From positions 806,001 through 870,000 of the forward strand of contig OZ037846.1 of assembly GCA_964035575.1 (NCBI GenBank): DNA of 64,000 bases. The letters run 5' to 3'. This stretch comes from Rhynchopus sp. YZ270_cl-10. Lineage: Eukaryota. Of this stretch, positions 1-53,590 are shown piece by piece (the stretch's first letter is position 1; every line of letters begins with the position of its first letter). The notes beneath the pieces were generated by a model. That model worked only from the letters and a program-made list of their open reading frames with translations, had not been told where the DNA came from and did not search any database. A program made the position numbers and the translations under genes.

Positions 1-2374
1 GTACTCCAGCTCTCATCACGTACTGCGCACTCTTTGCTCCATCCACTGAAACACAGGCGGAGCGGTCACTGGTGAAGGCTTCAATCCAGTTGAGGTAGCG
101 TGGTGGCAGGTGCTGCTTGTGCTTCAGCGCCTGGAGTATGCGCTTGCGAGACACAGTGTCGAACGCCTTTTCTACGTCGAAGAAGAGTGCGATGGTGGGG
201 CGGTTCTTCCCCGCATTCACCCGCTGCATGAGCGCCGCGAGCTGGTCTATCGTGGAGAGACGACGGCGGAAACCTGCTTGTGTGCGGTGTGGGCCCCTGT
301 ACTGCGGCAGGTCCGGACTGTCTTGCATCTGGGTGATGCGGCACTTGACCATCTTCTCCAAGAGTTTGCAGACGTTGCTCGTAAGAGAGATGGGGCGGTA
401 CGACGCGGGGATGCTGGCGTCCTTCCCGTTCTTAGCGATGGGCACGATGTTGCTCTGCAGCCACGATGTAGGGAGTTCACCTTTGCACCAGGATAAGTTG
501 AGGACGTGGAGTAAGGCGTCTCGTCCTTTGGGCCCAAGATGCAGCAAGAGCTCGTTGTGCATCTCGTCCAGCCCAGGTGCTTTGCCCAGCTTCAGCGAGC
601 TCATCGCGTAATCGAGCTCCGGCAAGGTGAAGGGAGCTTCGCTTGCCGCTCCGGTGTAGCCCTCGCTCTGTGTGTTGTTGCGCCTAGCAGTACGCTGCGG
701 GTTGGCGAGAGAAGGGGGCGTGCCGTCTCCACTCACTGCGGCGAAGTAGCGGGCCAGGGTGTTCGCTTTTTCCTGCGGTGTGTTCGTCAGAGGGCCCTCC
801 GGGGTAGCGACTGCTTTGGTGATGGGTTTCACCCGGTCACCACTGAGCTCCTTCAACCTCCGGAAAGTGCTGCTGAGAGGTGGTGGTGTGGCGGCGTTGC
901 AGCTACGCACCCATGCCTGCTGCTTCGCATCCATGATGGCACAGGAGGTGGCGACCTTCAGCTCTTTCAGCTTTTCGGCTTGGACGTCGCGTTCCGTCTC
1001 GTCCGCGGAGAGAAGTAGTTCCGTCACTGCGTTGCGTTCTTGCAGCAATTCATGGACCTGAGGAGTGAACCACGACTTCCTGACCCTTGGTGTGGAGGTG
1101 TGGTGGGAGAGTGGGATGTGTTTTTCTGCGATGTTCTTGCACAATCCCGTGAACCTGTTCACCGCATCTACACCACCCCAGTTGTGGGCCTTGGGGGCGT
1201 AACGCTCCAGCTCTGCCGTGTACGCCTCCCAATCCGCACGTGACCAGCACCATCTCAGCAGGTGTTCGGGCACTGTCGCGTCTTCGTCGCCTCCGTTCAC
1301 TTCCTCCCCTTCCGTCGGAGGTTGCACTGTGACTAGGATGGGGAGGTGGTCGGAGCCTCGTGCGCAAAGTGTGGTCCATGTGGCTTCTACGTTCCTGTGT
1401 ACCAAGGTGATGTCCGGTGAGGAGAAGACTGTTCCGGAGAAGCGCGTGACTGTGTTGGGGCAGTTGAGCACCTGCATGGCGTTGCGCAGCGACCACTGGT
1501 GTAGCTGTGACCCTTTGGCATCTGGCTTCGCTTGGAGGTCCCACGCAGGGTGGTGGACGTTGAAGTCACCGAGGATGATGGAGTCTTCGTCGGAGGGGAG
1601 GTCATCTGCAGAGAAGTCGTCCACACGCAGGTCATCAGCGCTGCTGCCTACACCTCCAGGTCGGTACAGGTTCGTCACCGTGTACTCCCGATGCTCCGTC
1701 GTCACCCTCACGTCAAGACGCTCCGTCACACTTGGCTCCCCGCTGGCCCAGGTGAGGGAGGCTTGGTGGCTTGTGTGCACCAGCGTGGCTATGCCGCCTC
1801 CGGAGTACAGGCTGCCATTGGGGGTGCGGCGTTGCGTGCGCTTCCGGAGGAAGGGGGTGTAGCCCGGGAACGCGGGCAGTGCTGTCTGCGCCTCCTTCAG
1901 CTCCTGCAGAGCCACCACATCGAAGTGCTCCGAGTTCAGTAACTCCTGCAGCTCCTCTTCCCGTTGCTCGGTCAGCCCGTTGCAGTTGAAGCTGATCAGC
2001 TTCAGGGCTTCCTCTGGTCCGGGGTTCTGCTCTACGTCGCCGCACCTCAGGAGAAGTAGACGTCTCAGGTGTAGGAGGTGGCGTCGTCCCTCAGATGGTT
2101 GCAGCTGTTGGTGCAGTTGTTGGTGCTGTTGCTGTTGCTGCTGCTGGTGATGTTGTCGTTGTTGTTGTTGCTGTTGCCGTTGTTGTTGTAGCTGTCGTTG
2201 CTGCTGTTGATGCTGCTGGTGATGTTGCTGTTGTTGTTGTCGTGTAAGCGGCCACTGCTGTTGATGCTGCTGTTGTTGCTGCTGGTGATGTTGTTGTTGT
2301 TGCTGTCGTATTAGGTGCCTCTGCTGTTGTTGCTGCTGATGTTGTTGTTGTTGGTGCTGCTGTACCGGTACATG
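1..2374 (-). CDS. LINE ORF2 (partial, runs off window): Gln-rich leader, 2A peptide, AP endonuclease, reverse transcriptase
   Basis: Hand translation (absent from the ORF track because no stop falls in the window): LISFNCNGL, VALQE, ILGDFNVHH, SPDITL, SDHLPI (APE); KAPGLD, YRPISLTS, QAGFR, FFDVEKAFDTV (RT). The frame stays open upstream to 3547; the true start is uncertain. Confidence 0.93.
2015..2086 (-). other. 2A-like ribosomal stop-go peptide RRHLLHLRRLLLLRCGDVEQNPG/P
   Basis: Exact D-[VI]-E-x-N-P-G-P consensus at 2038-2015, preceded by a Leu/Arg-rich stretch, in frame and a few residues before the APE domain. Confidence 0.92.
2099..2362 (-). repeat. Coding CAA/CAG-rich trinucleotide tract (poly-Gln/His, about 60 Gln in ~88 codons)
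   Basis: Mixed CAA/CAG/CAT/CAC codons, stop-free and in frame with 2A-APE-RT. Confidence 0.9.
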
Positions 2375-2478
2375 TTTTGTTTTGTGGGGTGTAAGGGGGA
2401 TGAGTTTGTGTGTAGTTGGAGGAGGTTGGATTAGGGAGGGTGGGGTTGGAGAGATAGGGAGGGGGGTGGTGGTATGGT

Positions 2479-4008
2479 CTACACGACGAGTTTGATCCCC
2501 TTGTTGCTGGACCGCGGCGACCGCACCGTTATCCCCCCCGGTATCGTCCGGGCTGTGGGGGAGCTGTCCCCAGTCTTGGCGGACGTGTTCCGCGCGTGCT
2601 CCTCTCCCACCCTCGCCCTTTTCCCTTTGGGCGTTTTCCTGGGGGATCCAGACGGTAGCGGTGTCTTTGACGAAGGCGTTTTGCCTTCTGTCATTTCTTC
2701 GTCGTCTTCTGTGCCGATGTTGGTGTCGACACTTAGTTTTGCACCGCCTTTCTTTCCGGGTCTTGTGCTCTTGGGGAGGAGCTTTTCTAGGCTTAGCGAT
2801 AACCCTTGGCTGATTTGTTCGAAGCCTTCGGCTAAGCCCACCCTCAATTGTGACGCGAGGTTTTCCTGATTTGTAGAGAGAGCTTCCACTCTCTTTTCCA
2901 AATCGGAAAACCTCGCGTCCCAAACTGAGGGTCCGGTCGCTGGTACGCTCCCCTTTCCCTTGCCTCCCTTGTTCCCCTTCCCGCTTCCCTTTCCACCCAT
3001 GTTCTCGTTCCCATCGCCTCCCACCGTTTTGGGGGACGTTGCATTCTGGCCGAGCCCTACTCCCATTGGGAGGGATGCACTGTGTGCCTGCTTCCCCCCT
3101 TCCCCGCTCTTTGCTCCTCCCCTGCCCCCGCCCTGACCCTTTGCTCCTGGGCTTTGGTAGCCCTTTCCTCTCCCCCTCCCCTTTCCTCCTTTTTGTGTCT
3201 GTGAGGTCGTGTTTTTTTTGTGTGGGGGGAATTTTGCATGGATCGCTGGTGTGCAGACGATCACATGCTCCCCAAATGTGAAGGAGGGTGGGGGTGGTGG
3301 TTGTGCATGCATTGCGACCAGGAGTGTGTGTGTGTGTGTGCCCCCGGGTGCTGTTTCCCTGCGAGTGCTTCTCCCTCTGATGTGGCGTCCCGTTTGGGAA
3401 ATTGCCGACACTAGGTCCTCGGGTGTGCACGTGGTGGGTAAGCCGGTGAGCCTGTAGCTTGCCTCCCCTGCCCTTTCCGCCTTTCCCACTGTTTCCCATG
3501 CCTTCACTTCGTCCTTTTTTGGGACAACGATCCCGAAATCCCCTAATCTACCCATTACCACCCTCCCCTGTACTCTTTCCGAGTGCTCCAGCGTTTCGTC
3601 GTAGGACGCTTCTGGCCAAATGACAGACGTAAGTCCGTCATTTGAGTTGGTGCGGGCGGGGCGTATGAACACCCCGTTCACACCGGAGAAAGATAGTATG
3701 GGGGCTTCGGGGGATGGGATTCCCTCAAAATAAAATTTAAAAATATGTTGAGAGGAGGGTTCTCTTCTTTTGAGGGTGAGGGGGGAGACTGACATACGGT
3801 GTTGCGAGAGGACTTGCCTCGCCTTCTCGTCTGCGTTCTTCTCCCACTCGTGCGCGTCATGCGCCGACCGCGACACTTCCAGCAGGAAGCCTTCTGCTTC
3901 CGCTAGCCGTGCCGCGGCTGCTGGCGTTGCCGCCGGGTTCCGGAGCGTGAGGGAGGGTGCCGGCTGCGTCTCTGCATCTACGTCCATGGCGTGATCCGGT
4001 GAGGTCAT
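2479..4008 (-). CDS. LINE ORF1-like protein, 509 aa (possible RRM-like core, Gly/Lys-rich segment, coiled coil)
   Basis: Long intact ORF between the ribozyme and ORF2. Contains an RNP2-like strand (YRLTGLPTTCTPEDLVSAI), GKG/RGG repeats and heptads (FSDLEKRVEALSTNQENLASQL). Confidence 0.8.
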   Translation of the reverse strand: MTSPDHAMDVDAETQPAPSLTLRNPAATPAAAARLAEAEGFLLEVSRSAHDAHEWEKNADEKARQVLSQHRMSVSPLTLKRREPSSQHIFKFYFEGIPSPEAPILSFSGVNGVFIRPARTNSNDGLTSVIWPEASYDETLEHSERVQGRVVMGRLGDFGIVVPKKDEVKAWETVGKAERAGEASYRLTGLPTTCTPEDLVSAISQTGRHIRGRSTRRETAPGGTHTHTLLVAMHAQPPPPPSFTFGEHVIVCTPAIHAKFPPHKKNTTSQTQKGGKGRGRGKGYQSPGAKGQGGGRGGAKSGEGGKQAHSASLPMGVGLGQNATSPKTVGGDGNENMGGKGSGKGNKGGKGKGSVPATGPSVWDARFSDLEKRVEALSTNQENLASQLRVGLAEGFEQISQGLSLSLEKLLPKSTRPGKKGGAKLSVDTNIGTEDDEEMTEGKTPSSKTPLPSGSPRKTPKGKRARVGEEHARNTSAKTGDSSPTARTIPGGITVRSPRSSNKGIKLVV

Positions 4009-4187
4009 GTTGTGGGGGGTGGGATTAGCAAAGGGTAGGTGGGCGTGCGGAGGTTGTTGAAGGGGGGAAAGGAAACAAAAGCAGACTTACCAGGTCAAAA
4101 GCGAATAGCAGGCAAAAGTATAATAGGTATTACACTTAAAATAAAAATAAAAATAAAGTAATGTTAGAAGACCCTGTTTCTCCTGAT

Positions 4188-4332
4188 CGCAGTTCTTAGT
4201 CGGTCACTCTTCTTGACCGTCCAGGGTTGCCACGGGGAGGCGACTGCGGTAGGTATAAAAGGGGTGAGGTGGTAAAAAGTAAATAAGTAAAAACAGGGTG
4301 GCACGTGGTGTTGTGTAATGTGTATAAACCCC
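4188..4332 (-). ncRNA. HDV-like self-cleaving ribozyme
   Basis: P1 GGGGUU (4332-4327)/AACCCU (4228-4223) with G1-U wobble; long J1/2; P2 CGCAGU/ACUGCG; P3 GCC/GGC; L3 UCCCCGU; P1.1 CC/GG; P4 CGGUCA/UGACCG; J4/2 A-C-UAA with predicted catalytic C at 4199. Confidence 0.85.
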
Positions 4333-4690
4333 TTTCCGGTGATCAATTGTTTTGGCTTTGTGTTTCATGTCGTGGTCAGAGAAGGGCGTACCTTATGACC
4401 CAAAGAGAAAGTAAACGTGTGTTGTGTGTCATCATGTCCGGGTGGCCGCATCAACGGTTTCTGGAAAGATCTACCGTAGTAGTCGCCGTCAACCTGCCCG
4501 TCTCCAGAAGTTTGTCCACATGCACCAGGTAGACACATGCAGTTTCCAAAGGTGAGCCTAGGGTCTTTTTGCACTGACTTTGGGGCCACAATACATTGCC
4601 TCACCCTAAGTCAGCGGGACGTTGCGCTACGGAGGGGTGTCCATGTCCAATCCTTGAGAATGCATCCACGGGCGGTCAAGAAAGGTTCTG

Positions 4691-4807
4691 AAGTCCCCCC
4701 ATACCTTCCCAGCCAAAGCCTTCGGGCGGTCAAAGAACTCCTTCCCCTTTCCCCATACCTACTAGGATACATTCGCTCACGACTTAGCAGTTTAAGGTCA
4801 TACTCAG
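4691..4807 (-). repeat. 117-bp segment, inverted copy of 6451-6567
   Basis: Reverse complement matches 6451-6567 by eye; the partner is cut off by the N gap. Confidence 0.9.
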
Positions 4808-6450
4808 AACCGCAATGCACCGAACGTAACCAACCGAACACAACAAACCCGATGTGTACGTAACGATCTGTATGCAACGAACGCAACGCAACGAACGCAA
4901 CGCATGCAACGCAACGCAACCGATGCGTACGTAACGATCGGAACGCAACGAACGTAACCAACCGAACACAACCAACGCAACGCAACCGCTCTGTTCGCTG
5001 CACTCTGTAGATAACGATCTCTACACAACTAACGCAACGCATGCAACACAACGTAACCGGTGTGCACGTAGCTATGTGTACGCAACGTAGCGAACGCAAC
5101 GCAACCAACGCAACGAGTGGTTACAACCCCCCACGCATGGTTCTCACAGCGCGCTGGCACGTTACCCAAGCCGCAAACCCGGTTACCTGACTTAAAAACC
5201 GGGTTTTCGGCCAAAACGCCTGTTTTGCCTGTAGAACCCTGTAGAAGCCTTAAGAAACACGTGTAAAAAAGGGGTACTCGCGACACCCTGGTTTCAGGGT
5301 CTGTCAGGGTTTGGAGGTCTTTGCTTCAGAGAAAGTCTCCTAAAAACCTCCTATCTTCCCAAGAATCCACTTTTTTGACCTCTTTGGACGTTTAGGGACC
5401 TGAAAAAAAATGGCCGAAACCCACCCCGCGCGGGGAGGGTGGGTGGGTGGGGAGGGTGGGTGGGTGGGGTGATCAGCAACCTTAAAGACCTTAACACTGA
5501 GTGTTAAGGAATTTAGTTTTTTTTGGCAATCCTTAACACTCACTGGCTGGTGTGGTTGCTGTATGAAAGGTTTGCAACGCACACAAGCCAACCAACACAA
5601 CCGATGCGATACGTTTCTTGCGTTCACATCGTTCCGTTCAGATCGGAACGATGTGAACGGAACGAATGCAACCGACGCAACGCAACCGTTCGGTACGTAA
5701 CGTCTCGAACCAAAGACACGGAAGCAACGCTACGCACCGAACTCAACGCATGCAACGCAACGCAACCGATGTGTACGTAACGATCGGAACGCAACGAACG
5801 TAACCAACCGAACACAACCAATGCAACGCAACCGCTCTGTTCGTTGCACTCTGTATATAACGATCTCTACACAACGAACGCAACGCATGCAACACAACGT
5901 AACCGATGTGTACGTAGATATGTGTACGCAACGTAGCGAACGCAACGCAACCAACGCAACGAGTGGTTACAACCCCCCACGCATGGTTCTCGCAGGGCGC
6001 TGGCACGTTTCCCAAGCCGCAAACCCGGTTACCTGCCTGAAAAACCGGGTTTTTGGCCAAAACGCCTGTTTTGCCTGTAGAACCCTTAAGAAACACGTGT
6101 AAAAAAGGGGTACTCGCGACACCCTCGTTTCAGGGTCTGTCAGGGTTTGGAGGTCTTTCTCATTTGCAAACCCTAAAAAAAACCTCCTATCTTCCCAATA
6201 ATCCACTTTTTTGACCTCTTTGGACGTTTAGAGACCTGAAAAAAAATGGCCGAAACCCACCCCGCGCGGGGAGGGTGGGGTGATCAGCAACCTTAAAGAC
6301 CTTAACACTGAGTGTTAAGGAATTAAAAACAAATCTCTCAGCGATCTGATTTGAGTTGACGGTCTTGAAAACACTTCGCTGGCTGGTGTGTCAAACGGTA
6401 TGTGTATGGTTTGCACGTAACGCTCGACGTATACGATACACACAATGGTC
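4808..6450. repeat. Degenerate tandem repeat (~810-850-bp period) built on CGCAA/CGAA motifs
   Basis: About 4900-5513 realigns to about 5750-6324. Each unit ends in the palindrome CCTTAACACT-G-AGTGTTAAGG (5489-5509, 6300-6320). Confidence 0.85.
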
Positions 6451-6567
6451 CTGAGTATGACCTTAAACTGCTAAGTCGTGAGCGAATGTATCCTAGTAGG
6501 TATGGGGAAAGGGGAAGGAGTTCTTTGACCGCCCGAAGGCTTTGGCTGGGAAGGTATGGGGGGACTT
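6451..6567 (+). repeat. 117-bp segment, inverted copy of 4691-4807, truncated by gap
   Basis: Direct sequence comparison. Confidence 0.9.
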
Positions 6568-6767
6568 NNNNNNNNNNNNNNNNNNNNNNNNNNNNNNNNN
6601 NNNNNNNNNNNNNNNNNNNNNNNNNNNNNNNNNNNNNNNNNNNNNNNNNNNNNNNNNNNNNNNNNNNNNNNNNNNNNNNNNNNNNNNNNNNNNNNNNNNN
6701 NNNNNNNNNNNNNNNNNNNNNNNNNNNNNNNNNNNNNNNNNNNNNNNNNNNNNNNNNNNNNNNNNNN
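6568..6767. other. Assembly gap (200 N)
   Basis: Run of N. Confidence 1.
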
Positions 6768-7428: not shown

Positions 7429-7585
7429 ACACATGAGGAAAATATGTCACATATTTTTCCTCTTCCTCTCTTCCAACACCTCCCCCCAACTTCAGGAAGC
7501 CACCACCGCGTAGGTGACCCCCTACACCCCCCTCCTCACCCCCCTACCCCATTCCCCCACCGCGATTACCCTTTAACCCCATAAA

Positions 7586-10500
7586 ATGGCAACCCGCACG
7601 GGGCCTTCTAATATTCCAGAAGGGAAGTCACTGGGGTCTGCGCCGGTTATCTTTTCGGCGTCTGTTGTTGTGCCGCCCGCTTCCGCTCCTGTTCCTGCCC
7701 CTGCCCCTGCTCCCGCTTCCGCTTCTGCATCTGCTTCTGTCTCTCCCTCCCCTTCTCCGTCTGCAGGGCAAGAAGTATTGACAAATGCGGCCACCACATC
7801 CGCACCACGTGGCAGACGACGTGATTCTCGGAGGAGAGGAGGATATTCGAGTGACCGTTCTGCTGGCTCCTCGGCATCGGAGGGTGGCAGACGTCGTCGT
7901 GGCGCAGGAGGTGGCGCGCTCTCCCGCACGCTCCCAGAGCTGCCCTGCCATGGCCAGGAGGCCTTCATGGAGGACGCTGCCGCTGCCCTTAATACACGCC
8001 TCACTGCGCTAGGCGCTACCTTCCAGCTTCCTCTCCTTGCAGATCGTACCCCGTATGGCTGCGCCATGCTTGTCTCCGATATTCTTATTATACTCCCAAC
8101 CCTTGCTTCCCCGGGTGACACTTCGGTTCTCCTGCAAAGCCTTGCTCTCACCCTAAGCTGGTGTTCCGAACCTTTAAACGAAGAAACCGCATTAGCAGTT
8201 CTCGAGGCAACAGAGGGGTTGGCGGTGCATGGTGACCCTGAGACATCGCATGCGGCTTGTGTAGCGTTGAATGCGTTGTTGAAACATTGTTTGCCGAAGA
8301 AAAAGCAGGGGGTACAGGCAAAGGTGATCACGATGCTTCCGGGGAATGATGGTACCGTTGATGGGACGTTGGCGGAGGTGTATCTCAATGCGGTGTCGGT
8401 GCAGACGAAGACGCAGGCAGCGTTGGCAGTAACGCATCTAGTAGAGCTAGGGTCGCACCTCATGCAGCAGGCCGCACCAACCAGCAGTCGCGCCTTTATG
8501 TCCTATTCGGAACGTCTAGGAAGCATTCTGCACCACCTCCACCACTCCTGCATCACCGCACTCCGACACAAAGACCTCCAACCCTCCAACGCACAACACG
8601 TTGCATCCCTCCTCCACCTCCTCCAATCTGCAGTGGCCCTCACACCGTACTATAAGCTTCCTGCAACGGCAGCGTTACTGTCAGAATTTATCCCAGACTT
8701 ATTGGTCATGGCAGCAGGCAATGAGAAAGGGTCAGTTATAGCGGCAATGCAGGTTCTCTGTTCTGCAGTAGGAAGTAAGCGTCCGTTTCAGCAAATGGCG
8801 TCGGCGCTGGAGGCTGCGCCCGAAGCGTTGGATCAAGTGTGTGAATTGGCGCGTACCCGGCATTTTGTTGCGTTTAAGCATGAGGCAGTGCGGTTGTGGT
8901 CAGCAGTAGCGAGAAACTACTCCTGGATCGTTCTGCCTCGTCTTGAGGTGCTGTTGCAACTCATCCGTGATCTGCAAGAAGCGCCCGACCAAATGTCGAA
9001 GCTCACCGCACTTCTATTCATCTCTGCTGCTTCCGACCAAAGCCTCCCCAGCGTCATGCAGCCAAGCGAAGAGATCCCCGTCATCGACTTCGCCTGCTTT
9101 GGTACAAGCAACCTCCCCCCTGGTGCTGACGCCACCGAAGTCACCACTACAGGCGATATGCTGCGAAAGCCCAGCACCGTCCAGGAAGGTGCCTCCACGC
9201 ATGCCTGCGTCTTCGCGGACAAACAGCCACTCTTTTTGGAAGTCGTCCACAGCCTGGTGCTCCCTCTTGTCAGCGACCCGGTTGCCGCAGTTCGAGGGCA
9301 CGCCGTGCTAGCGTTGGGGAACATCCCACCAGCGACGTTGGACTCTCTGCCATCTGAACAGAGCAGGCTTTTGTTTGACACTGTTCTGGAGACGTGTCGG
9401 GATGACAACAATACGGTGCGTGGCGCTGTGGCCAAGGTGGTTGGGGTGTGGGTGGGTGCTGCGTGCATCTTAGAACGCCGTGGGTGTGTTGTGAACGCAC
9501 TGCTGGAAATGTTCCGAGCGGAGCAGCAGGCACTGCACCAGAAGGCGGCCTGGGCTTTGTCATGTCTCTGCGAAAGACTGCGTGGTGCTGGCGACGTAGA
9601 CGACCAAGAAGCACTGAGCAGCATTGTGCGAGGTTGCATGGAGGTGTTGGACCGGCTGCCGAACAAAGTTCCTTGGAACGTTGTGCGTGCGCTTGGGAAT
9701 AGCGGGCTTCTGTATGCCGGCCCGTTGGATAGTGTGCTGCGTGCTTTGTCACGGCTTTTTGATGATTCAAATGTTAAAGTGCGTTGGAACACTGCGTACG
9801 CGATAGCCCAGATCTTCCGCAATCCGCATCTGAGGGTGGTTTACCAAGAGGCCAGTCAGAGTCGGTCTCCCTCACCACAAGGTGCGCTTGCGTTGGTCAC
9901 CAAGCTCGCAACAGTGCTGCAAAACGAACAGAACTTCAAGGTGCGGATCCAGGCGTGCTGGGCGTTGGCTGCACTGCAGGCCTTCCCGATCCAGGGGAAG
10001 ACTCTTCCTCTCGTGCTCGGGGCGGTGCTTAAGGCATTACATTCATGTGACAGCCACATCGATCATGAGCAATATAAATACCGTGATGTGCTGACAGTGT
10101 CGCTAAAGGGGTTGATCCTGCATGTACTCCGGTTTTGTATGAAGGTGGCAAAAGGAGCAACTGGCAGCACACTCTCTTCAGAAGATAAACACGAAGGTAT
10201 TTCAATCTGGCTGAATTTTTTTTCTACAGTGGAGATTGCACAAACTGTGGCAACACAGCCGAGGCAACTACACTACTCCAACTTTCGACTTTTATTCAAA
10301 AAAAAGTCGAAAGAGAAGAGCCCAAAAAAACGCGCTTTTTGTAGTCTAGGGGCAGGGGCCGAACGCATTTTTTTTACCTTTCTTTCTTTATTTTTTCCCA
10401 GCGTTTTTGACACATTGTGCCTGAAATTCTGAGAATTTAACTTCTATTCTTATCAAAACAAACCCCCTTTTCTCTCTTTCACTTGTAGTGAGGCCTTAAC

Positions 10501-23750: not shown

Positions 23751-24695
23751 TACACTACTCCAACAATTTTTCAAAAAAAAAAAGCAACACACAACACCAG
23801 GGAAGTTCCTAAGTGGGACCGAGAACATGAAATTCTGGATTTTAGTTTTTTTTTCCTTTTTTCCTTGGGGGGCTTTCTTGTGGTTTCTGGTGGGTTTCAC
23901 TGTAGGTGACACACCACCAGTGTGGTGAAATGGAAAAGCAAGAGTTTTCAGGGGGCAAGAAAAAAAATTGACAGCAAAATCCTGCACCATCCAGGGCTGT
24001 ATCCCCAATTTTTTTTGCCTGCGGCGCCATTTTTCATTTTTTGCTCTGCAAAAAAGGGTTCGTTGGAAGCTAGATTTTTACACCGTACCCAAAAATTTTT
24101 GCCTGCGGCGCCATTTATATTATTTTTTTGCTCCGCAAAAAAGTGCAAACGCCTCACCGTTCATCGGCGGAAGCACTCGTTCCACGGGTTATCGAACCCC
24201 AGAGAGCACTTCATTGGCATGCACACGGTTACCACGAAGGAGCGTATATGCAGGTACAAAATCACTGCCCCATCCAAATAATATTCCCAACGTCTTTGGG
24301 GATCCCCTTGCATTTTGCAGCCAAAATGCAACTAGACCAAAGCTGCAAAAAGTTCCGCGCGCGTGTAGCGCGCCCGGGTTTGGGACCCCTTTTTGAATTT
24401 CGAGGGGCGGTTAAAGTGGGCCCAGAATCACAGTTCTGACACTCATTTAGCATTGTGAGCAACTCACTAGTGGTCGTAACCAAAATTTGTATCAATCAAG
24501 AACTTGTCCATTTTCTCGAAATGACCCCACTACAGTGAGGGTAGAGCTCAGAAAGCCCGAAAAAGGGCAAAAAACCCCACCCAAAAAAAGGAAAAAAACG
24601 GGAACATAAATCCAGAATTTTGCTGTTTTTTCCGAGAACAAGGGGCAACCCTGCACAACACCCTAACTGGAGCACCACCCAGGTACATACAAAAG

Positions 24696-27600
24696 ATGCA
24701 TGGTTCGAGCTTCTTCTGTTTTGTGACCCTTCTGAAAGCTCTCTTTCTCAGTAGTTTCATTCAGAGCGCAGTTGGCATTGCATGTACGGCCGACGCCGGC
24801 GCTGATTGTACTACAACTTGTGGATCGCTTGGAGCTTGTTATAACACCATAATAGATTGCCCTCCGGGATATAAATGTACGATAGAATGTACAGGCGCAA
24901 ACTCTTGCGCTTCCATGGTGGTCAGAGCAGGGGCTGGGGTTGACCTTCAGATCTCATGCACCGCAAGTGCGGCTTGCTACGGCATGGACATCCAATCTGC
25001 TGACGCAGCATCTCTCACGCTCGCTTGTTCAACTGACCCTAGTTCTTGTCTGCAGCTGACATTAAAGTGTCCAACAGCTGGAACATGTGCTGCCGCGTGT
25101 CCTCAAAGATTTTACTGTAGTGACCAAGTCCTAGCAGTTGTAGATAGAACACCTGCTCCATCACCACCAACTCCGTCACCACCTACACCGAGTCCACCGA
25201 CCCCGAGTCCACCGCCTGAATGTACGGCCGACGCCGGCGCCGATTGTACTACTACTTGTGGAGCTTGTGTTCAAATCATCATAAATTGCCCTCTGGGAAA
25301 GAAATGTACGATACTATGTGAAGACACATATTCTTGCTACAACACGGTGGTCGCAGCAGGGGCTGGGGTTGACCTGGAAATAGTATGCACCAATCCTTCC
25401 TCTTGCAGGCGAATGGACATCCAAGCTGCTGACGCAGCATCTCTCACGATCGCCTGCTCATCTGAGACACTTGTTTGTCATGGTCTTGAATTAACGTGTC
25501 CAACAGCTGGAACATGTGCCGCTACGTGTGCTCAGAGAGGGGATTGTAGTGCCGAACTCCTAGCAGTTGTAGATAATCCACCTACATCAACACCTAGTCC
25601 TCCTACTACTTCACCACCTACGCCTAGTCCACCGACACCATCACCACCGACTCCGTCACCACCTACACCTAGTCCACCTACACCAAGTCCTCCGACTCCG
25701 TCACCACCTACACCAAGTCCACCTACGCCTAGTCCACCGACACCATCACCACCGACTCCGTCACCACCTACACCTAGTCCACCAACACCAAGTCCTCCGA
25801 CACCATCACCACCGACTCCTTCACCACCGACTCCGTCACCTACACCGAGTCCACCGACCCCGAGTCCACCGCCTGAATGTACGGCCGACGCCGGCGCCGA
25901 TTGTACTACTACTTGTGGAAATTGTGAGCACATCACGATAGCTTGCCCTCTGGGAAAGAAATGTACGATACTATGTGAAGACACACAATCTTGCTACAAC
26001 ACGGTGGTCGCAGCAGGGGCTGGGGTTGACCTGGAAATAGTATGCACCAATCCTATCTCTTGCAGGAGAATGGAGATCTACGCTGCTGACGCAGCATCTC
26101 TCACGGTCACCTGCTTATCTGGGTCACAAGTTTGTACTTTTCTTGAATTAACGTGTCCAACAGCTGGAACATGTGCCGCTACGTGTGCTCGGAGAGAGTA
26201 TTGTAGTGCCCAACTCCTAGCAGTTGTAGATAATCCACCTACATCAACACCAAGTCCTCCGACTCCGTCACCACCTACACCAAGTCCACCGACACCATCA
26301 CCACCTACTCCGTCACCACCTACACCTAGTCCACCGACACCAAGTCCACCTACACCAAGTCCTCCGACACCATCACCACCGACTCCGTCACCACCTACAC
26401 CAAGTCCACCGACACCATCACCACCGACACCAAGTCCTCCGACACCATCACCACCTACTCCGTCACCACCTACACCTAGTCCACCTACACCAAGTCCTCC
26501 GACACCATCACCACCGACTCCGTCACCACCTACACCAAGTCCACCGACACCAAGTCCACCGACACCAAGTCCACCTACACCAAGTCCTCCGACATCATCA
26601 CCACCGACACCAAGTCCTCCGACACCATCACCACCGACTCAGTCACCACCTACACCAAGTCCACCGACACCATCACCACCTACTCCGTCACCACCTACAC
26701 CTAGTCCACCGACACCAAGTCCACCTACACCAAGTCCTCCGACACCATCACCACCGACTCCGTCACCACCTACACCAAGTCCACCGACACCAAGTCCACC
26801 GACTCCGTCACCACCTACACCTAGTCCACCGACACCAAGTCCACCTACACCAAGTCCTCCGACACCATCACCACCGACTCCGTCACCACCTACACCTAGT
26901 CCTCCGACACCATCACCACCGACACCATCACCACCGACACCATCACCACCGACTCCGTCACCACCTACACCAAGTCCACCGACACCATCACCACCGACAC
27001 CAAGTCCACCGACACCAAGTCCACCGACTCCGTCACCACCTACACCTAGTCCACCGACACCAAGTCCACCGACTCCGTCACCACCTACACCTAGTCCACC
27101 GACACCAAGTCCACCTACACCAAGTCCTCCGACACCATCACCACCGACTCCGTCACCACCTACACCTAGTCCTCCGACACCATCACCACCGACACCATCA
27201 CCACCGACACCATCACCACCGACTCCGTCACCACCTACACCAAGTCCACAGACACCAAGTCCACCTACACCTAGTCCTCCGACACCAAGTCCTCCGACAC
27301 CATCACCACCGACTCCGTCACCACCTACACCTAGTCCACCGACACCAAGTCCTCCGACGCCATCACCACCGATTCCGTCACCACCTACACCAAGTCCACC
27401 GACACCAAGTCCTCCGACTCCGTCACCACCTACACCTAGTCCTCCGACACCATCACCACCGACACCAAGTCCTCCGACTCCGTCACCACCGACACCACGT
27501 CCACCGACACCAAGTCCACCTACACCAAGTCCTCCGACACCATCACCACCGACTCCGTCACCACCTACACCAAGTCCACCGACACCATCACCACCGACAG

Positions 27601-30600
27601 CAAGTCCACCGACACCATCACCACCGACTCCGTCACCACCTACACCACGTCCACCGACACCAAGTCCACCGACACCATCACCACCGACTCCGTCACCACC
27701 TACACCAAGTCGTCCGACACCAAGTCCTCCGACACCAAGTCCACCGACACCAAGTCCTCCGACTCCGTCACCACCGACACCACGTCCACCGACACCAAGT
27801 CCACCGACACCATCACCACCGACACCAAGTCCTCCGACACCAAGTCCACCGACACCAAGTCCTCCGACTCCGTCACCACCTACACCTAGTCCTCCGACAC
27901 CATCACCACCGACACCAAGTCCTCCGACTCCGTCACCACCGACACCACGTCCACCGACACCAAGTCCACCTACACCAAGTCCACCGACACCATCACCACC
28001 GACAGCAAGTCCACCGACACCAAGTCCTCCGACTCCGTCACCACCGACACCACGTCCACCGACACCAAGTCCACCGACACCATCACCACCGACACCAAGT
28101 CCTCCGACACCATCACCACCGACACCAAGTCCACCGACACCATCACCACCGACACCAAGTCCTCCGACACCAAGTCCACCGACACCAAGTCCTCCGACTC
28201 CGTCACCACCTACACCTAGTCCTCCGACACCATCACCACCGACACCAAGTCCTCCGACACCAAGTCCACCGACACCAAGTCCTCCGACTCCGTCACCACC
28301 TACACCAAGTCCACCGACACCATCACCACCGACAGCAAGTCCACCGACACCATCACCACCGACTCCGTCACCACCTACACCACGTCCACCGACACCAAGT
28401 CCACCGACACCATCACCACCGACTCCGTCACCACCTACACCAAGTCGTCCGACACCAAGTCCTCCGACACCAAGTCCACCGACACCAAGTCCTCCGACTC
28501 CGTCACCACCGACACCACGTCCACCGACACCAAGTCCACCGACACCATCACCACCGACACCAAGTCCTCCGACACCAAGTCCACCGACACCAAGTCCTCC
28601 GACTCCGTCACCACCTACACCTAGTCCTCCGACACCATCACCACCGACACCAAGTCCTCCGACTCCGTCACCACCGACACCACGTCCACCGACACCAAGT
28701 CCACCTACACCAAGTCCACCGACACCATCACCACCGACAGCAAGTCCACCGACACCAAGTCCTCCGACTCCGTCACCACCGACACCACGTCCACCGACAC
28801 CAAGTCCACCGACACCATCACCACCGACACCAAGTCCTCCGACACCATCACCACCGACACCAAGTCCACCGACACCATCACCACCGACACCAAGTCCTCC
28901 GACACCAAGTCCACCGACACCAAGTCCTCCGACTCCGTCACCACCTACACCTAGTCCTCCGACACCATCACCACCGACACCAAGTCCTCCGACACCAAGT
29001 CCACCGACACCAAGTCCTCCGACTCCGTCACCACCGACACCAAGTCCACCTACACCAAGTCCTCCGACACCATCACCACCTACTCCGTCACCACCTACAC
29101 CAAGTCCACCGACACCAAGTCCACCTACACCAAGTCCTCCGACATCATCACCACCGACACCAAGTCCTCCGACACCATCACCACCGACTCAGTCACCACC
29201 GACACCAAGTCCTCCGACTCCGTCACCACCTACACCTAGTCCTCCGACACCATCACCACCGACACCATCACCACCGACACCAAGTCCACCGACACCAAGT
29301 CCACCGACTCCGTCACCACCTACACCTAGTCCACCGACACCAAGTCCTCCGACGCCATCACCACCGACTCCGTCACCACCTACACCTAGTCCTCCGACAC
29401 CAAGTCCTCCGACACCATCACCACCGACTCCGTCACCACCTACACCTAGTCCACCGACACCAAGTCCTCCGACGCCATCACCACCGATTCCGTCACCACC
29501 TACACCAAGTCCACCGACACCAAGTCCTCCGACTCCGTCACCACCTACACCTAGTCCTCCGACACCATCACCACCGACACCAAGTCCTCCGACTCCGTCA
29601 CCACCGACACCACGTCCACCGACACCAAGTCCACCGACACCATCACCACCGACACCAAGTCCACCGACACCCAGTCCTCCGACTCCGTCACCACCTACAC
29701 CTCGTCCACCTACACCAAGTCCTCCGACACCATCACCACCTACTCCGTCACCACCTACACCTCGTCCACCTACACCAAGTCCTCCGACACCATCACCACC
29801 TACTCCGTCACCACCTACACCAAGTCCACCTACACCAAGTCCTCCGACATCATCACCACCGACACCAAGTCCTCCGACACCATCACCACCGACTCAGTCA
29901 CCACCGACACCAAGTCCTCCGACTCCGTCACCACCTACACCTAGTCCTCCGACACCATCACCACCGACACCAAGTCCTCCGACTCCGTCACCACCGACAC
30001 CACGTCCACCGACACCAAGTCCACCGACACCATCACCACCGACACCAAGTCCTCCGACACCAAGTCCACCGACACCAAGTCCTCCGACTCCGTCACCACC
30101 TACACCTAGTCCTCCGACACCATCACCACCGACTCCGTCACCACCTACACCAAGTCGTCCGACACCAAGTCCTCCGACACCATCACCACCGACTCAGTCA
30201 CCACCGACACCAAGTCCTCCGACTCCGTCACCACCTACACCTAGTCCACCGACACCATCACCACCGACACCATCACCACCGACACCATCACCACCGACAC
30301 CAAGTCCACCGACACCAAGTCCACCGACACCAAGTCCTCCGACTCCGTCACCACCGACACCACGTCCACCGACACCAAGTCCACCTACCCCAAGTCCTCC
30401 GACACCATCACCACCGACACCATCACCACCGACTCCGTCACCACCTACACCAAGTCCACCGACACCATCACCACCGACACCAAGTCCTCCGACACCAAGT
30501 CCACCGACACCAAGTCCTCCGACTCCGTCACCACCGACTCCGTCACCACCTACACCAAGTCGTCCGACACCAAGTCCTCCGACTCCGTCACCACCTACAC

Positions 30601-31847
30601 CTAGTCCACCGACACCATCACCACCGACACCAAGTCCACCGACACGATCACCACCGACACCAAGTCCTCCGACACCAAGTCCACCGACACCAAGTCCTCC
30701 GACTCCGTCACCACCGACACCAAGTCCACCGACACCATCACCACCGACTCCGTCACCACCTACACCTAGTCCACCTACACCTAGTCCTCCGACACCATCA
30801 GCACCGACACCAAGTCCTCCGACTCCGTCACCACCGACACCAAGTCCTCCGACTCCGTCACCACCTACACCACGTCCACCGACACCAAGTCCACCGACAC
30901 CATCACCACCGACACCAAGTCCTCCGACTCCGTCACCACCGACACCACGTCCACCGACACCAAGTCCACCGACACCATCACCACCGACGCCGTCACCACC
31001 TACACCTCGTCCACCTACACCTAGTCCTCCGACACCATCAGCACCGACACCAAGTCCTCCGACACCAAGTCCACCGACACCAAGTCCTCCGACTCCGTCA
31101 CCACCGACACCACGTCCACCGACACCAAGTCCACCGACACCATCACCACCGACTCCGGCACCACCTACAACGAGTCCTCCAACACCTAGTCCACCGACTC
31201 CGTCACCACCGACACCATCAGCACCGATGACATCAACAGCGACACCAAGTCCGTCGACGCCGTCACCACCTACACCGAGTCCTCCTTCTCCTTCACCACC
31301 GACTCCATCACCACCTGCAGCAAGTCCACCGACTACATCACCAGCGACACCGTTGCCGTCTGTGCTTGGTGGAGGTGTGACATTGATTCCTTCCACCATG
31401 CCACCACCAACTCCAGCACCTTCGACTCCAATACCACCATCACCTTCACCAGTAACTCCAAGACCAGAGACTCCGCCTATTGCAGTGGCAACAGTTATAC
31501 CTACTGCAATTCCAACAGCGGTACCGACAGCAGTTCCAGTAGTAGTACCCACAGCAGTGCCAGCCGCTGTTACGACTGCGATTCCAACAGTGCCTACAAC
31601 GGTTGAAACTGTTGCACCACTTGCATCAACAGTACCCACTGTAATTCGAACAGATGTCCCAACTGCGGTTGCAGCTGCAGTACAGAACGAAGCGGACTCT
31701 GAAATGTATTTTGTGGCCATTGGTGGTGGAGTAGGCGCGCTGTTGGTTGCTGTTGGTATTGGTGCCTTCGTGTGGCATGCACAGGGCAACAAGGGTTACA
31801 GCCCTCAGCAGAGCATAAATGCTAACCACCACACTGAACCGTTTTAG
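24696..31847 (+). CDS. Large Pro/Thr/Ser-rich type I membrane surface protein (mucin/extensin-like), 2383 aa
   Basis: Hydrophobic signal peptide, three ~120-aa Cys-rich repeats starting [14 protein letters not shown], more than 300 TPSPP units, a TM helix ([23 protein letters not shown]) and a short tail; uninterrupted frame. Confidence 0.9.
26240..31170 (+). repeat. Coding 15-bp tandem array (TPSPP)n with higher-order duplications
   Basis: ACACCAAGTCCACCG / ACTCCGTCACCACCT variants; identical antisense ORFs at 27970 and 28705 indicate a 735-bp duplication. Confidence 0.97.
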
Positions 31848-33907: not shown

Positions 33908-34936
33908 TGTTTTGTGTTACCTCTCTAGGTTGAGCACGTCTCCCGAACGTATCTGGATACCCCGCTTTACAGTGGTATAAGCATGGTCTCTCAGTAGGGT
34001 GTTGCTGATGTGTATTGAGAGGTGCTTTTTCACCTTTAAAAATTCTAAAAAAAAAGAAGAAAAAAGTGCTCAGACAATCACAGAAGTGTCCAAAACCCGT
34101 TATTTGCGATCACTTTTTGGGCTATTTTTTCCAAAATAACCCCGGGCCTCACTTGTCCCAAAAATGGGGTATTTTGGACAATTGTATGTCCCCAATAGAA
34201 AACACCAAAACGCACACACCGTGTTTTTTCTGTTTCTTCAAAGCACAGGAGTGATGGCAAACAAGTACTTTGGACATCCATGTTTATATCCCATCAGTTT
34301 TTTTTTGTCTATTTTTACGGCTTTTGACTGTGCACAGTCGTCAGTGCTTCTTATTTTATGATTTTGTGCTGTTTTCTCCGTATTTATACAAATAAATCAG
34401 TTTTGGGATGTGTGTTTGACATCAGGTGTGGGTTATCCCTGGAATTCGAGGTATAGCCCATGGTGGGGGTGCTCATGTCACAGCTGTGTGTGTTTTTTTG
34501 TTTGATACCTGGGTAATTCTTGTGAAGAATATTGCCCCGTGTGTGTGTATGTGTTACAAACAAATGCGGCTAGTTCCTTAGCGGAGCATTGCCCATATGT
34601 TGCGTGTGGTGTGCGTTTCACCACAACCTCTCCCATGGGTTTTATCGTGCGATGAGTGTTAAGTTTCTATTTTTATACCTTCAAGCGTAGCTTAAAGGAG
34701 GAAATAGTTCCTCACATACGGTCGCCAATCACCCCCTCCAACAGGGTACACGACGTTGAAGTAACTTACTTTACTTGTGGTTTTACTTGTGGTTTTACAT
34801 GTAATAATTTTTACTTGTGGTCACAAGTAATTACTTGTGACCACAAGTAACTTTTACTTGTGCACAAGTAATTTTTTACTTGTGCACAAGTAACTTTTTA
34901 CTTGTGCACACGGTGCGCTGGTCAGAGATCTGACCA

Positions 34937-35293
34937 GGTACCCAGGTACCCAGGTACCCAGGTACCCAGGTACCCAGGTACCCAGGTACCCAGGTACCCA
35001 GGTACCCAGGTACCCAGGTACCCAGGTACCCAGGTACCCAGGTACCCAGGTACCCAGGTACCCAGGTACCCAGGTACCCAGGTACCCAGGTACCCAGGTA
35101 CCCAGGTACCCAGGTACCCAGGTACCCAGGTACCCAGGTACCCAGGTACCCAGGTACCCAGGTACCCAGGTACCCAGGTACCCAGGTACCCAGGTACCCA
35201 GGTACCCAGGTACCCAGGTACCCAGGTACCCAGGTACCCAGGTACCCAGGTACCCAGGTACCCAGGTACCCAGGTACCCAGGTACCCAGGTAC
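34937..35293. repeat. (GGTACCCA)44 satellite
   Basis: Perfect 8-bp tandem array. Confidence 0.98.
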
Positions 35294-48903: not shown

Positions 48904-49699
48904 TGTACTGTGTACTGTGTACTGTGTACTGTGTACTGTGTACTGTGTACTGTGTACTGTGTACTGTGTACTGTGTACTGTGTACTGTGTACTGTGTACT
49001 GTGTACTGTGTACTGTGTACTGTGTACTGTGTACTGTGTACTGTGTACTGTGTACTGTGTACTGTGTACTGTGTACTGTGTACTGTGTACTGTGTACTGT
49101 GTACTGTGTACTGTGTACTGTGTACTGTGTACTGTGTACTGTGTACTGTGTACTGTGTACTGTGTACTGTGTACTGTGTACTGTGTACTGTGTACTGTGT
49201 ACTGTGTACTGTGTACTGTGTACTGTGTACTGTGTACTGTGTACTGTGTACTGTGTACTGTGTACTGTGTACTGTGTACTGTGTACTGTGTACTGTGTAC
49301 TGTGTACTGTGTACTGTGTACTGTGTACTGTGTACTGTGTACTGTGTACTGTGTACTGTGTACTGTGTACTGTGTACTGTGTACTGTGTACTGTGTACTG
49401 TGTACTGTGTACTGTGTACTGTGTACTGTGTACTGTGTACTGTGTACTGTGTACTGTGTACTGTGTACTGTGTACTGTGTACTGTGTACTGTGTACTGTG
49501 TACTGTGTACTGTGTACTGTGTACTGTGTACTGTGTACTGTGTACTGTGTACTGTGTACTGTGTACTGTGTACTGTGTACTGTGTACTGTGTACTGTGTA
49601 CTGTGTACTGTGTACTGTGTACTGTGTACTGTGTACTGTGTACTGTGTACTGTGTACTGTGTACTGTGTACTGTGTACTGTGTACTGTGTACTGTGTAC
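48904..49699. repeat. (TGTACTG)113 satellite
   Basis: Perfect 7-bp tandem array. Confidence 0.98.
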
Positions 49700-52857: not shown

Positions 52858-53590
52858 TTTGTTGTCAAAGACATCTTCCACCATGCATTGAGGAGGGTAA
52901 GACAGTGGTCGCAGTTTGTACTTGATAGCATTACAACATTTAACTTCTCCACGGGGGTCTTGGGCCGTTCACTCGGTTATACCTTGACCAGCGGAAGAGG
53001 CCTTTTTGGTCTCTAGAATATCCGGTATTCCCGAACGGAGGCACACTTTGTGTGTTACTACGACCTGGCAACTTCCAGCAGTAGGTTAAGTAATGCTTTC
53101 TTGTAAATTGTTGGATCATTTATCTCCTCAGTGCATGAATGCCCCACGTGACTGGACACTTTTGTGTTTGTCAAGTGGACTGTCTGGTCACTTCTCAGTG
53201 ACTGGCGGGTTGGCTGTGGTTGCCCTGTCACGACTTACCTGTGTACCTGTGTACCTGTGTACCTGTGTACCTGTGTACCTGTGTACCTGTGTACCTGTGT
53301 ACCTGTGTACCTGTGTACCTGTGTACCTGTGTACCTGTGTACCTGTGTACCTGTGTACCTGTGTACCTGTGTACCTGTGTACCTGTGTACCTGTGTACCT
53401 GTGTACCTGTGTACCTGTGTACCTGTGTACCTGTGTACCTGTGTACCTGTGTACCTGTGTACCTGTGTACCTGTGTACCTGTGTACCTGTGTACCTGTGT
53501 ACCTGTGTACCTGTGTACCTGGGTGACTGGGTACGTACCTGGGTAAATGTGACCAGGTGACCTGGTCAGACCTCTGACCAGCGCACCGTG
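52858..53590 (-). mobile_element. Partial element homologous to 34909-35670 (CACGGTG terminus, satellite, unique block)
   Basis: Inverted homology of the terminal CACGGTGCGCTGGTCAGAG motif and of ~320 bp beyond the satellite. Confidence 0.8.
53236..53520. repeat. (TACCTGTG)35 satellite (GGTACACA on the minus strand)
   Basis: Perfect 8-bp tandem array. Confidence 0.98.

What the first reader, a model, noticed from the sequence alone, without database searches (positions are those of the whole stretch)
1..4332. LINE with a stacked RNA-processing and recoding cassette: HDV ribozyme + ORF1 + overlapping AUG-poor ORF2 + polyQ + 2A
Seen: the order on the minus strand is HDV-fold RNA, ORF1, a -1-frame ORF2 with a Gln-rich leader, DVEQNPG/P, APE, RT. 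Established: trypanosome L1Tc/Ingi elements carry a 5' HDV ribozyme and a 2A ahead of APE but are essentially single-ORF, and several animal APE LINEs have 2A. Inference: a two-ORF element with all of these plus a polyQ linker is not an arrangement I recognise. The 2A would release an identical Pro-APE-RT protein however ribosomes enter the frame, making the leader a disposable entry ramp.
Basis: partly seen in the sequence, partly recalled or inferred. Interest (0 to 1): 0.88.

Follow-up and report, generated by a model that had tools for sequence, protein, structure and literature searches.

The report
Two-gene retrotransposon with ribozyme and 2A
This is an intact, multi-copy jumping gene, likely from a diplonemid flagellate, with a predicted self-cutting RNA at its front and two genes overlapping by 356 codons; it likely makes its copying enzyme by slipping reading frame inside the first gene, and a predicted 2A 'skip' peptide would then release the enzyme, whereas its described trypanosome relatives have only one gene.

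Summary
The minus strand carries a full HDV-type ribozyme fold (G1 at 4332), ORF1 (4008-2479; predicted RRM and coiled coil) and a -1-frame ORF2 that is open from 3547. ORF2 has one upstream AUG (3499), an 88-codon Gln-rich tract, a canonical Leu-rich 2A, APE and RT; other copies add RNase H and a zinc finger. Contigs from three studies show the same frames, so this is not a misassembly, and copies are about 99.5% identical. RT groups with diplonemid elements inside an Ingi-like clade, which the papers read describe as lacking ORF1. The 356-codon overlap is kept stop-free beyond chance (0 of 73 risky sites, p=2e-4). A second family, 34% identical, has a 2A-like motif behind a leader that reads as the -1 frame of its ORF1, but no polyQ. 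So overlap plus 2A looks conserved and polyQ is incidental. Entry into ORF2 is untested: -1 frameshift about 0.45, AUG 3499 about 0.25. A 479-bp upstream module joins both full and truncated copies at the predicted cut site. HDV+2A and ORF1+2A each have precedent; the combination is a new variant.

The parts
4333..4811 (-). 479-bp upstream module: a promoter module of the element or a preferred insertion site. Its 3' end abuts the predicted ribozyme cut site.
   Evidence: One contig covers 4333-4811 in X2 at depth 1667 against 670-1046 for the body; a module-to-module joint and a one-base variant at 4332/4333 are listed. A second copy starts at the same base at 6451(+) with a different flank. 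P0156 joins module-encoded residues (4368-4333) to the RNase H region.
4188..4332 (-). HDV-like ribozyme fold: 6-bp P1, J1/2 of about 78 nt, P2, P3/L3, P1.1, P4, and J4/2 with the putative catalytic C. Predicted cut 5' of G4332.
   Evidence: Descriptor search and shuffles; coordinates; no Rfam hit.
4134..4166 (-). U-rich tract followed by AG at 4136: candidate spliced-leader acceptor for an ORF1 mRNA (inferred).
   Evidence: One of two AGs with a pyrimidine-rich upstream 30-mer between 4340 and 2000; no RNA data.
2479..4008 (-). ORF1, 509 aa: predicted RRM at about aa 177-262, Gly/Lys-rich linker, predicted coiled coil at aa 361-410; no CCHC knuckle seen.
   Evidence: Models pLDDT 44.7 and 59.7; RRM matches Z 8.9, rmsd 2.4, 82 aligned; remote relative P0029, E 1.3e-4; no Pfam hit.
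2479..3547 (-). 356-codon dual-coding overlap: ORF2 in the -1 frame of ORF1.
   Evidence: 0 of 73 stop-creating synonymous choices against 24 of 188 at other sites, Fisher p=2.4e-4; 5 of 20000 overlap-only shuffles are stop-free; no indel in runs X1, X2, X5.
3481..3523 (-). Candidate entry zone: slippery heptamers at 3523, 3520 and 3487 and the in-frame AUG at 3499. Further heptamers at 3217 (A_AAA_AAC) and 2959.
   Evidence: 5 heptamers, all in the overlap, against 2.8 expected (5-95% range 1-6); none has a significant 3' structure at canonical spacing.
2841..2932 (-). Very stable RNA hairpin inside the dual-coding region; further strong stems near 3948-3830 and 3685-3612.
   Evidence: -66.6 kcal/mol, z -8.55, 0 of 200 shuffles; 3 of 24 ORF1 windows have z<-3 against 0 of 82 in ORF2 and two host genes.
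2099..2362 (-). Gln-rich leader segment (60 Gln of 88 codons, mixed CAA/CAG).
   Evidence: bridged at equal length by an X2 contig.
2015..2075 (-). 2A (StopGo) sequence: Leu-rich stretch plus GDVEQNPG|P directly before APE.
   Evidence: 6 Leu between positions -19 and -10, within the 3-6 range reported for active eukaryotic 2A-like peptides.
1..2014 (-). APE endonuclease and the first part of RT (cut by the window edge); other copies continue into RNase H and a Cys/His finger.
   Evidence: Pfam PF14529, PF03372, PF00078; P0147 99.7% identical over 639 aa with PF00075.

Best explanation
This is an intact, recently spread two-ORF LINE of a likely diplonemid host, related to Ingi, whose predicted HDV-like ribozyme would cut its RNA free at position 4332 and whose APE-RT-RNase H protein is likely reached by a -1 ribosomal frameshift inside ORF1 and then predicted to be released by 2A. 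Steps: (1) Transcription starts upstream, likely in the 479-bp module, and the ribozyme trims the 5' end (fold shown, activity inferred). (2) Most ribosomes make ORF1p, a predicted RRM plus coiled-coil RNA-coating protein (fold predicted). (3) A minority slip into the -1 frame within the overlap; the open frame under selection is shown, the slip and its site are inferred. (4) They translate a low-complexity leader whose sequence does not matter, including the polyQ. (5) 2A drops the leader and yields Pro-APE-RT-RNase H at a low level (inferred from motif and Leu content). (6) The RNA is copied by target-primed reverse transcription (established for the class). The identity of the element and its architecture are about 0.9 certain; the number below is for the frameshift route.
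For: Frames are identical in contigs of X1, X2 and X5, with only 2 substitutions below 4332 shared by all runs laid, neither creating a stop. Copies are 98.8-100% identical at protein level. The -1 frame avoids stops only inside the overlap: 0 of 73 there, against 5 of 27 before it and 13 of 135 in APE-RT. ORF1 is the older frame there, since its RRM and homology to P0029 run into the overlap. A second family repeats the layout: the P0345 leader (aa 10-158) fits the -1 frame of P0029-type ORF1 aa 363-508 at z 7.0, above all 60 shuffles, while the +1 frame does not, and it ends in a 2A-like motif before APE. All 5 slippery heptamers of ORF1 lie in the overlap, three within 70 nt of its start. 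There is no in-frame AUG between the ORF1 stop and APE.
Against: No slippery site has a significant stem at 5-9 nt (z from -1.8 to +1.3), and 5 heptamers against 2.8 expected is within chance. The strongest hairpin begins 20 nt after the nearest heptamer. An in-frame AUG at 3499 offers a simpler entry. One host control gene also shows stop avoidance in the -1 frame (31 of 177, p=0.002), so such tests can fire without dual coding, though that gene still has 31 stops. Taken by thirds, only the last third of the overlap is significant by itself (p=0.009). The second family's overlap is inferred from proteins, not DNA; P0345 is 1 of 15 listed members and lies on a contig not shared with the listed ORF1 proteins. 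The review passages read give no case of -1 frameshifting into a LINE ORF2.
Confidence: 0.45

Rival explanations
1. ORF2 starts at the in-frame AUG 3499 inside ORF1, reached by leaky scanning, shunting over the ORF1 hairpins, or alternative spliced-leader addition; 2A then removes a 494-aa leader.
For: AUG 3499 lies 16 codons after the frame opens, where an entry point would be expected. Strong hairpins lie upstream of it. All diplonemid mRNAs are SL trans-spliced.
Against: Seven AUGs precede it, and AUG 3555 is in good context. No pyrimidine tract with AG lies just upstream. The AUG may be a by-product of an Ala-Trp dipeptide conserved in ORF1.
Confidence: 0.25
2. Ribosomes finish ORF1 and re-initiate, AUG-independently or at near-cognate codons, in the spacer or polyQ, as proposed for mammalian L1; the long overlap is a by-product.
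For: Unconventional initiation is the accepted picture for L1 ORF2. Near-cognate codons exist in frame between 2455 and 2050. 2A makes the start point irrelevant.
Against: It does not explain stop avoidance over 356 codons or the second family's overlap. The first AUG after the ORF1 stop (2373) opens a 20-codon out-of-frame mini-ORF.
Confidence: 0.15
3. A cis- or trans-spliced RNA joins ORF1 or a leader to ORF2 at an AG near 2363, behind the G-free C-rich spacer.
For: The spacer 2478-2380 has no G and 55% C; diplonemid intron tracts prefer C; a GTAAGT donor-like motif lies at 4090.
Against: No AUG would follow such an acceptor. No joint skipping ORF1 is among the listed contig joints (28 joints not shown). 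It does not explain the open overlap.
Confidence: 0.1
4. The arrangement is a chimeric or misassembled copy, or a frameshifted single ORF.
For: The window begins inside the element, next to satellite DNA and an N gap; several database copies are interrupted by other repeats.
Against: Contigs from three studies bridge the module-ribozyme-ORF1, ORF1-polyQ and polyQ-APE junctions without frame change (one run may be the assembly's source). Identical ORF1 and ORF2 proteins occur on several contigs.
Confidence: 0.02

Closest known systems
L1Tc / ingi elements of trypanosomes (Ingi clade)
   Same: 5' HDV-like ribozyme, 2A directly before APE, APE-RT-RNase H, euglenozoan host. RT resembles the RTclass1 Ingi references by eye.
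   Different: Described as lacking ORF1. Their ribozyme fits in the first 77 nt and doubles as promoter; here it spans 145 nt with a long J1/2 and sits behind a 479-bp module. No long dual-coding overlap is described for them in the passages read.
CR1-26_BF, CR1-53_BF, CR1-1_LG and the Cordylochernes ORF1p-2A-ORF2p proteins
   Same: ORF1 and a 2A ahead of APE/RT in one element.
   Different: The three named elements are CR1 clade, and all are from animals. No ribozyme or long -1 overlap is reported in the passages read. The Cordylochernes cases are in-frame fusions.
R2, RTE and Baggins elements with HDV-like ribozymes
   Same: The ribozyme frees the element from a co-transcript; junctions vary by untemplated bases at the cut site.
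   Different: R2 has one ORF and targets 28S rDNA; no 2A or RNase H is described for it in the passages read.
Dictyostelium TRE5-A
   Same: Two-ORF LINE with a discrete 5' promoter module (200-bp A-module).
   Different: No ribozyme or 2A in the passages read; targets tRNA genes. An ORF1/ORF2 overlap with a proposed -1 frameshift is recalled, not confirmed by a call.
Paramecium non-LTR groups 1-3
   Same: Protist two-ORF LINEs whose ORF2 is proposed to need recoding (+1 frameshift, re-initiation or readthrough).
   Different: Separate clade, +1 rather than -1, no 2A or ribozyme mentioned in the passages read.

Membership tests
Ingi clade (RT-defined) | RT groups with Ingi references | tested here: inconclusive
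   No named reference sequence is in the trees. P0147 lies in a 24-row clade with named Diplonema proteins (SH-aLRT 96), nested in a 50-row clade (93) holding P0006 and P0238, which carry short motifs of I1_AC and I2_AC, both labelled Ingi in RTclass1. Quick tree only; leans to yes.
Ingi clade (RT-defined) | APE-RT-RNase H in one ORF | tested here: met
   Pfam on P0147, all above cut-off; RNase H lies outside the window.
L1Tc/ingi family proper | Single ORF, no ORF1 | tested here: not met
   509-aa ORF1 with predicted RRM.
L1Tc/ingi family proper | 77-nt Pr77 promoter/ribozyme at the very 5' end | tested here: not met
   The fold spans 4332-4188 and follows a 479-bp module. Sequence similarity to Pr77 was not tested.
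L1Tc/ingi family proper | 2A directly before APE | tested here: met
L1Tc/ingi family proper | Poly(A) tail and target-site duplication | not testable with these tools
   The 3' end lies outside the window and no genome is held.
HDV-like ribozyme | Nested double pseudoknot, G1 wobble, 7-nt L3, C in J4/2 | tested here: met
   P1 has 6 bp, not the usual 7 (recalled).
HDV-like ribozyme | Covariation across homologues | tested here: inconclusive
   0 of 91 related loci gave a descriptor hit; all are distant and many lack 5' ends.
HDV-like ribozyme | Self-cleavage 5' of G1 | not testable with these tools
   Indirect only: P0156 and the contig joints fall at 4332/4333.
2A / StopGo peptide | GD(V/I)ExNPGP with a Leu-rich upstream helix | tested here: met
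2A / StopGo peptide | Skipping activity | not testable with these tools
   The motif alone is not sufficient according to PMC3708506.
Programmed -1 frameshift cassette | Overlapping -1 frame kept open; X_XXY_YYZ heptamer | tested here: met
Programmed -1 frameshift cassette | 3' stimulatory structure 5-9 nt after the heptamer | tested here: not met
   Simple-stem folding gave z above -1.8 for all 5 sites; pseudoknots and protein stimulators were not tested.
I-clade ORF1 | CCHC zinc knuckles | tested here: not met
   No such motif in the translation and no Pfam hit; the feature is from PMC3391268 for Nimb and recalled for I.

The most novel reading that the evidence does not exclude
Diplonemids hold an Ingi-related LINE lineage that carries an RRM-type ORF1 and expresses its enzyme as retroviruses do, by -1 frameshifting from ORF1, with 2A standing in for a protease. 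It also keeps a promoter module upstream of its own ribozyme and re-attaches that module at each insertion by template jumping onto the cleaved 5' fragment, which would explain module-module tandems and module-plus-truncated-copy junctions at the cut site.
Probability: 0.2. Interest if true: 0.85.

Novelty: new variant of a known kind. Interest (0 to 1): 0.62.

Why it matters
How LINE ORF2 is translated is a long-standing open question, and the published model holds that 2A replaces ORF1 as the brake on ORF2 in Ingi-type elements. An intact, young family with both, and with a long overlap under selection, allows direct tests: single silent mutations separate frameshifting, internal initiation and re-initiation. 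It also bears on whether Ingi lost ORF1 or this lineage gained it. A fixed module upstream of a self-cleaving ribozyme poses a second testable problem: how an element keeps a promoter that it cuts off.

Tried and rejected
No genome is held, so no genome-wide copy list, 3' end, tail or target duplications. No RNA holder was listed among 12 runs; this says nothing about expression. Rfam: no HDV family match at gathering or E<=10. No tRNA gene in the window. Plain MFE folding of the ribozyme region is unremarkable (z -1.07), as expected for a pseudoknot. The upstream module is unstructured (z +1.56). Its partial complementarity to the ribozyme core as an attenuator is weak: 62 of 200 shuffles as good by energy, 4 of 200 by longest perfect match. 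Related-locus scans found only distant LINEs: 80 metagenome loci, 11 from genome contigs, none viral; 3 of 91 carry a 2A motif and 0 of 91 the HDV descriptor. ESM Atlas for the ORF1 N-half gave no hit above 0.88, one RRM-bearing cluster at 0.83; the Atlas query for the ORF2 leader did not complete. Pfam finds nothing in ORF1 or the leader. The idea that ATG 2373 is the true ORF2 start with an assembly indel was rejected: no frame-changing indel in the contigs. Repeat-associated translation on CAG hairpins is unlikely: longest pure CAG run 3 and no structure in the 2A-proximal part. The frame test on 7 other leaders (first 90 aa) gave nothing above the shuffle range. Truncated database copies other than P0156 abut other repeats and do not decide whether the module is target or promoter. 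The careful IQ-TREE run did not finish. Earlier-findings look-ups were empty.
Full report
Observation. All modules are present on the minus strand in the stated order. ORF1 runs from ATG 4008 to the stop at 2481-2479. ORF2 is open from 3547 to the window edge in the -1 frame, with in-frame ATGs only at 3499 and, inside APE, 1477 among positions above 1400. The Gln-rich tract (2362-2099) has 60 Gln in 88 codons. GDVEQNPG|P sits directly before APE. Pfam confirms APE and RT. The HDV fold has all helices and a C in J4/2. My descriptor, written after seeing the sequence, hit once on both strands of the window and in 0 of 2000 shuffles; Rfam did not match.

Not an artefact. No genome is held. Contigs of 4 of the 12 listed runs were laid on 1-6400. 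X1 bridges 2324-3770 (1 other letter, no gap) and 3741-4811 (1 other letter, 1 extra base at 4332/4333). One X2 contig covers 836-2109 and 2249-2440 with exactly 139 letters for the 139 skipped repeat bases; another covers 2557-3683. X5 covers 2340-2655. The only indels listed within the ORFs are 1 and 2 bases at 2310 and 2314 in one X2 contig, together one codon. The tool cut its tables (16 substitution rows, 28 joints and most contig pieces not shown), and one run may be the assembly's source. In X2, body contigs have depth 670-1046 against 73.5 for the neighbouring host gene, roughly 9-14 copies; the tool warns that depth is not a copy number. The ORF2 cluster has 19 members and the ORF1 cluster 4. 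The 15 listed ORF2 members are 98.8-100% identical to the longest, P0147, which adds RNase H and a C-terminal Cys/His motif. The family is young and intact.

Host and clade. The best named homologues come from Rhynchopus humris (39%), Diplonema japonicum, D. ambulator and D. papillatum, so the host is inferred to be a diplonemid. A FastTree of RT from 226 of 248 proteins and a quick IQ-TREE of 75 rows that I chose from them (careful run unfinished, group labels mine) put P0147 in a clade with the named Diplonema proteins (SH-aLRT 96). That clade nests in a larger one (93) that is separate from I-like and CR1/L2-like rows. No named Ingi sequence is in these trees. The label rests on reading RTclass1 references in the supplement of PMC3708506 and on short motifs of I1_AC and I2_AC found in P0006 and P0238; a third motif, from Ingi-1_Rpro, matched nothing. 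2A-like motifs before APE recur in D. japonicum P0037, D. ambulator P0372 and, in degenerate form, P0002 and P0003.

ORF1. The search of 1.84 billion representatives returned 3 proteins: itself, P0029 (E 1.3e-4) and a fragment P0030. Models are of low to moderate confidence. Residues of about 177-262 match RRMs throughout the top of the list (best Z 8.9, rmsd 2.4, 82 aligned), only just above the tool's stated background of 7-8, and 361-410 form a long helix. This fits an RNA-binding LINE ORF1p (established for the class).

The overlap. Synonymous shuffles of ORF1 gave a stop-free run of 356 codons in 2 of 10000 and, restricted to the overlap, 5 of 20000. At sites where a T-ending codon would create a -1-frame stop, 0 of 73 use T against 24 of 188 elsewhere (p=2.4e-4). 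Before the overlap it is 5 of 27, in APE-RT 13 of 135. One host gene shows no bias and another shows some (31 of 177, p=0.002). By thirds, only aa 360-509 is significant alone, so the entry point is not fixed. ORF1 also holds strong RNA stems: 3 of 24 windows at z<-3 under codon-preserving shuffles against 0 of 82 control windows, the strongest at 2932-2841. Their role is unknown.

A second family. The ORF2 cluster of P0230 (34% identical to P0147) shares three contig lengths with the P0029 ORF1 cluster and two with this family, so it is inferred to be a second two-ORF family in the same assembly. One of its 15 listed members, P0345, was called with a 200-residue leader ending in a Leu-rich, non-canonical 2A-like motif before APE; three others start just before the motif. 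Scored as the -1 frame, the leader aligns to P0029 aa 363-508, up to its C-terminus (z 7.0, above all 60 shuffles and all 60 unrelated segments; P0164 z 5.4, P0167 z 5.7). The +1 frame does not align (a cruder test agreed). The leader has no polyQ. This is protein-level inference; the DNA was not seen, and the first two leader residues force a stop in the ORF1 frame, so that copy may be truncated there. Whether this family has a ribozyme is unknown.

Mechanism. A long open -1 frame in two families means ribosomes likely enter ORF2 within ORF1. I favour -1 frameshifting (0.45): all 5 slippery heptamers lie in the overlap, including A_AAA_AAC, listed among the most shift-prone in mammalian ribosomes. 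Against it, none has a canonical stimulator and the count is within chance. Initiation at AUG 3499 is the main rival (0.25); re-initiation (0.15) and splicing (0.10) do not explain the open frame. The 2A has the canonical core and 6 Leu at -19 to -10, the pattern linked to skipping and reduced output in PMC13405545. Any entry would then give the same Pro-APE-RT-RNase H, and the leader, polyQ included, is free to drift. A U-rich tract with AG at 4136 could let SL trans-splicing make a capped ORF1 mRNA apart from the ribozyme-cut template (inference).

The upstream module. 4333-4811 is one contig in X2 at depth 1667, about twice the body; in X1 no doubling is visible. A second copy starts at the same base at 6451(+) with a different flank and runs into an N gap. 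X2 has a head-to-tail module joint with one extra base. P0156 joins the 12 residues encoded by 4368-4333 to residue 1047 onward of P0147. So 4332/4333 is a real boundary, independent of the fold prediction. Either the module is a mobile repeat whose 3' end is a preferred target and supplies transcription, as 28S does for R2, or it is the element's own promoter re-attached by template jumping. The data do not decide; one X5 joint links 3852 directly to satellite.

Comparison with print. PMC3708506 (parts 1-3 of 6 read, plus passages of supplement file 2; file 1 was not searchable) and PMC3894237 (parts 1-2 of 3) state that Ingi-clade elements lack ORF1 and that a few CR1 elements have both ORF1 and 2A. 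PMC13405545 (passages and section 14) reports 2A between ORF1p and ORF2p domains in Cordylochernes. Passages only were read from PMC4035085, PMC12278014, PMC6765202 and PMC3774820 (ribozymes, Ingi anatomy), PMC10161547 and PMC12621601 (diplonemid genomes; the former says its transposons await rigorous identification), and PMC5405496, PMC5009743, PMC3159450 and PMC3391268. Ten literature searches listed no paper describing a diplonemid Ingi-like element with ORF1, or a LINE with this overlap. The library lacks most subscription papers, and Repbase and Dfam could not be searched.

Verdict. Real, intact and unusual, built from known parts. It works like an Ingi element but fails the single-ORF and Pr77 tests of the L1Tc/ingi family proper. 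The new elements are ORF1 in this lineage, the selected -1 overlap ahead of 2A in two families, and the module at the cut site. Novelty: new variant of a known kind. Interest 0.62.

Noticed in passing
window 6447-6567 (+), then N gap 6568-6767: Inverted second copy of the module's first 121 nt (99%), starting at the same base; what follows is hidden by the gap. The sequence after the gap is single-copy by depth.
   Followed up: partly
window 4811-6400: Very high-copy satellite (about 850-bp period, rich in short CGTTG-type units) flanks both module copies.
   Followed up: partly
window 60757-63998 (+): A second, unrelated RT-encoding element (PF00078; 24% to this RT), running off the window, with an upstream endonuclease-like ORF by eye.
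   Followed up: partly
window 2373-2311 (-): 20-codon mini-ORF in the ORF1 frame behind an A-rich context; it begins Met-Tyr, as do the called ORF2 starts of relatives P0001 and P0034, so it may be a relic start.
   Followed up: partly
window 4171-4187 and 4283-4299: J1/2 of the ribozyme can pair with sequence just 3' of P2 (17 nt, 82%), possibly a peripheral stabilising or anti-misfolding helix.
   Followed up: no
P0152, P0154, P0157, P0160: Family copies abut another repeat seen in both orientations, which suggests a small DNA transposon inserting into LINE copies.
   Followed up: no
window 24525-31847 (-): 2440-aa mucin-like protein with about 325 PTPSP repeats, Cys-rich domains and a C-terminal membrane segment.
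   Followed up: no
window 43007-45763 (+), 51334-52479 (+), 7577-10432 (+): Host genes that read as single ORFs: a receptor with a bacterial-type solute-binding domain, porphobilinogen deaminase, and a HEAT-repeat DUF4042 protein.
   Followed up: no
window 34934-35293, 48904-49699, 53236-53521, 55545-55999: Perfect or near-perfect 7-12 bp tandem arrays.
   Followed up: no
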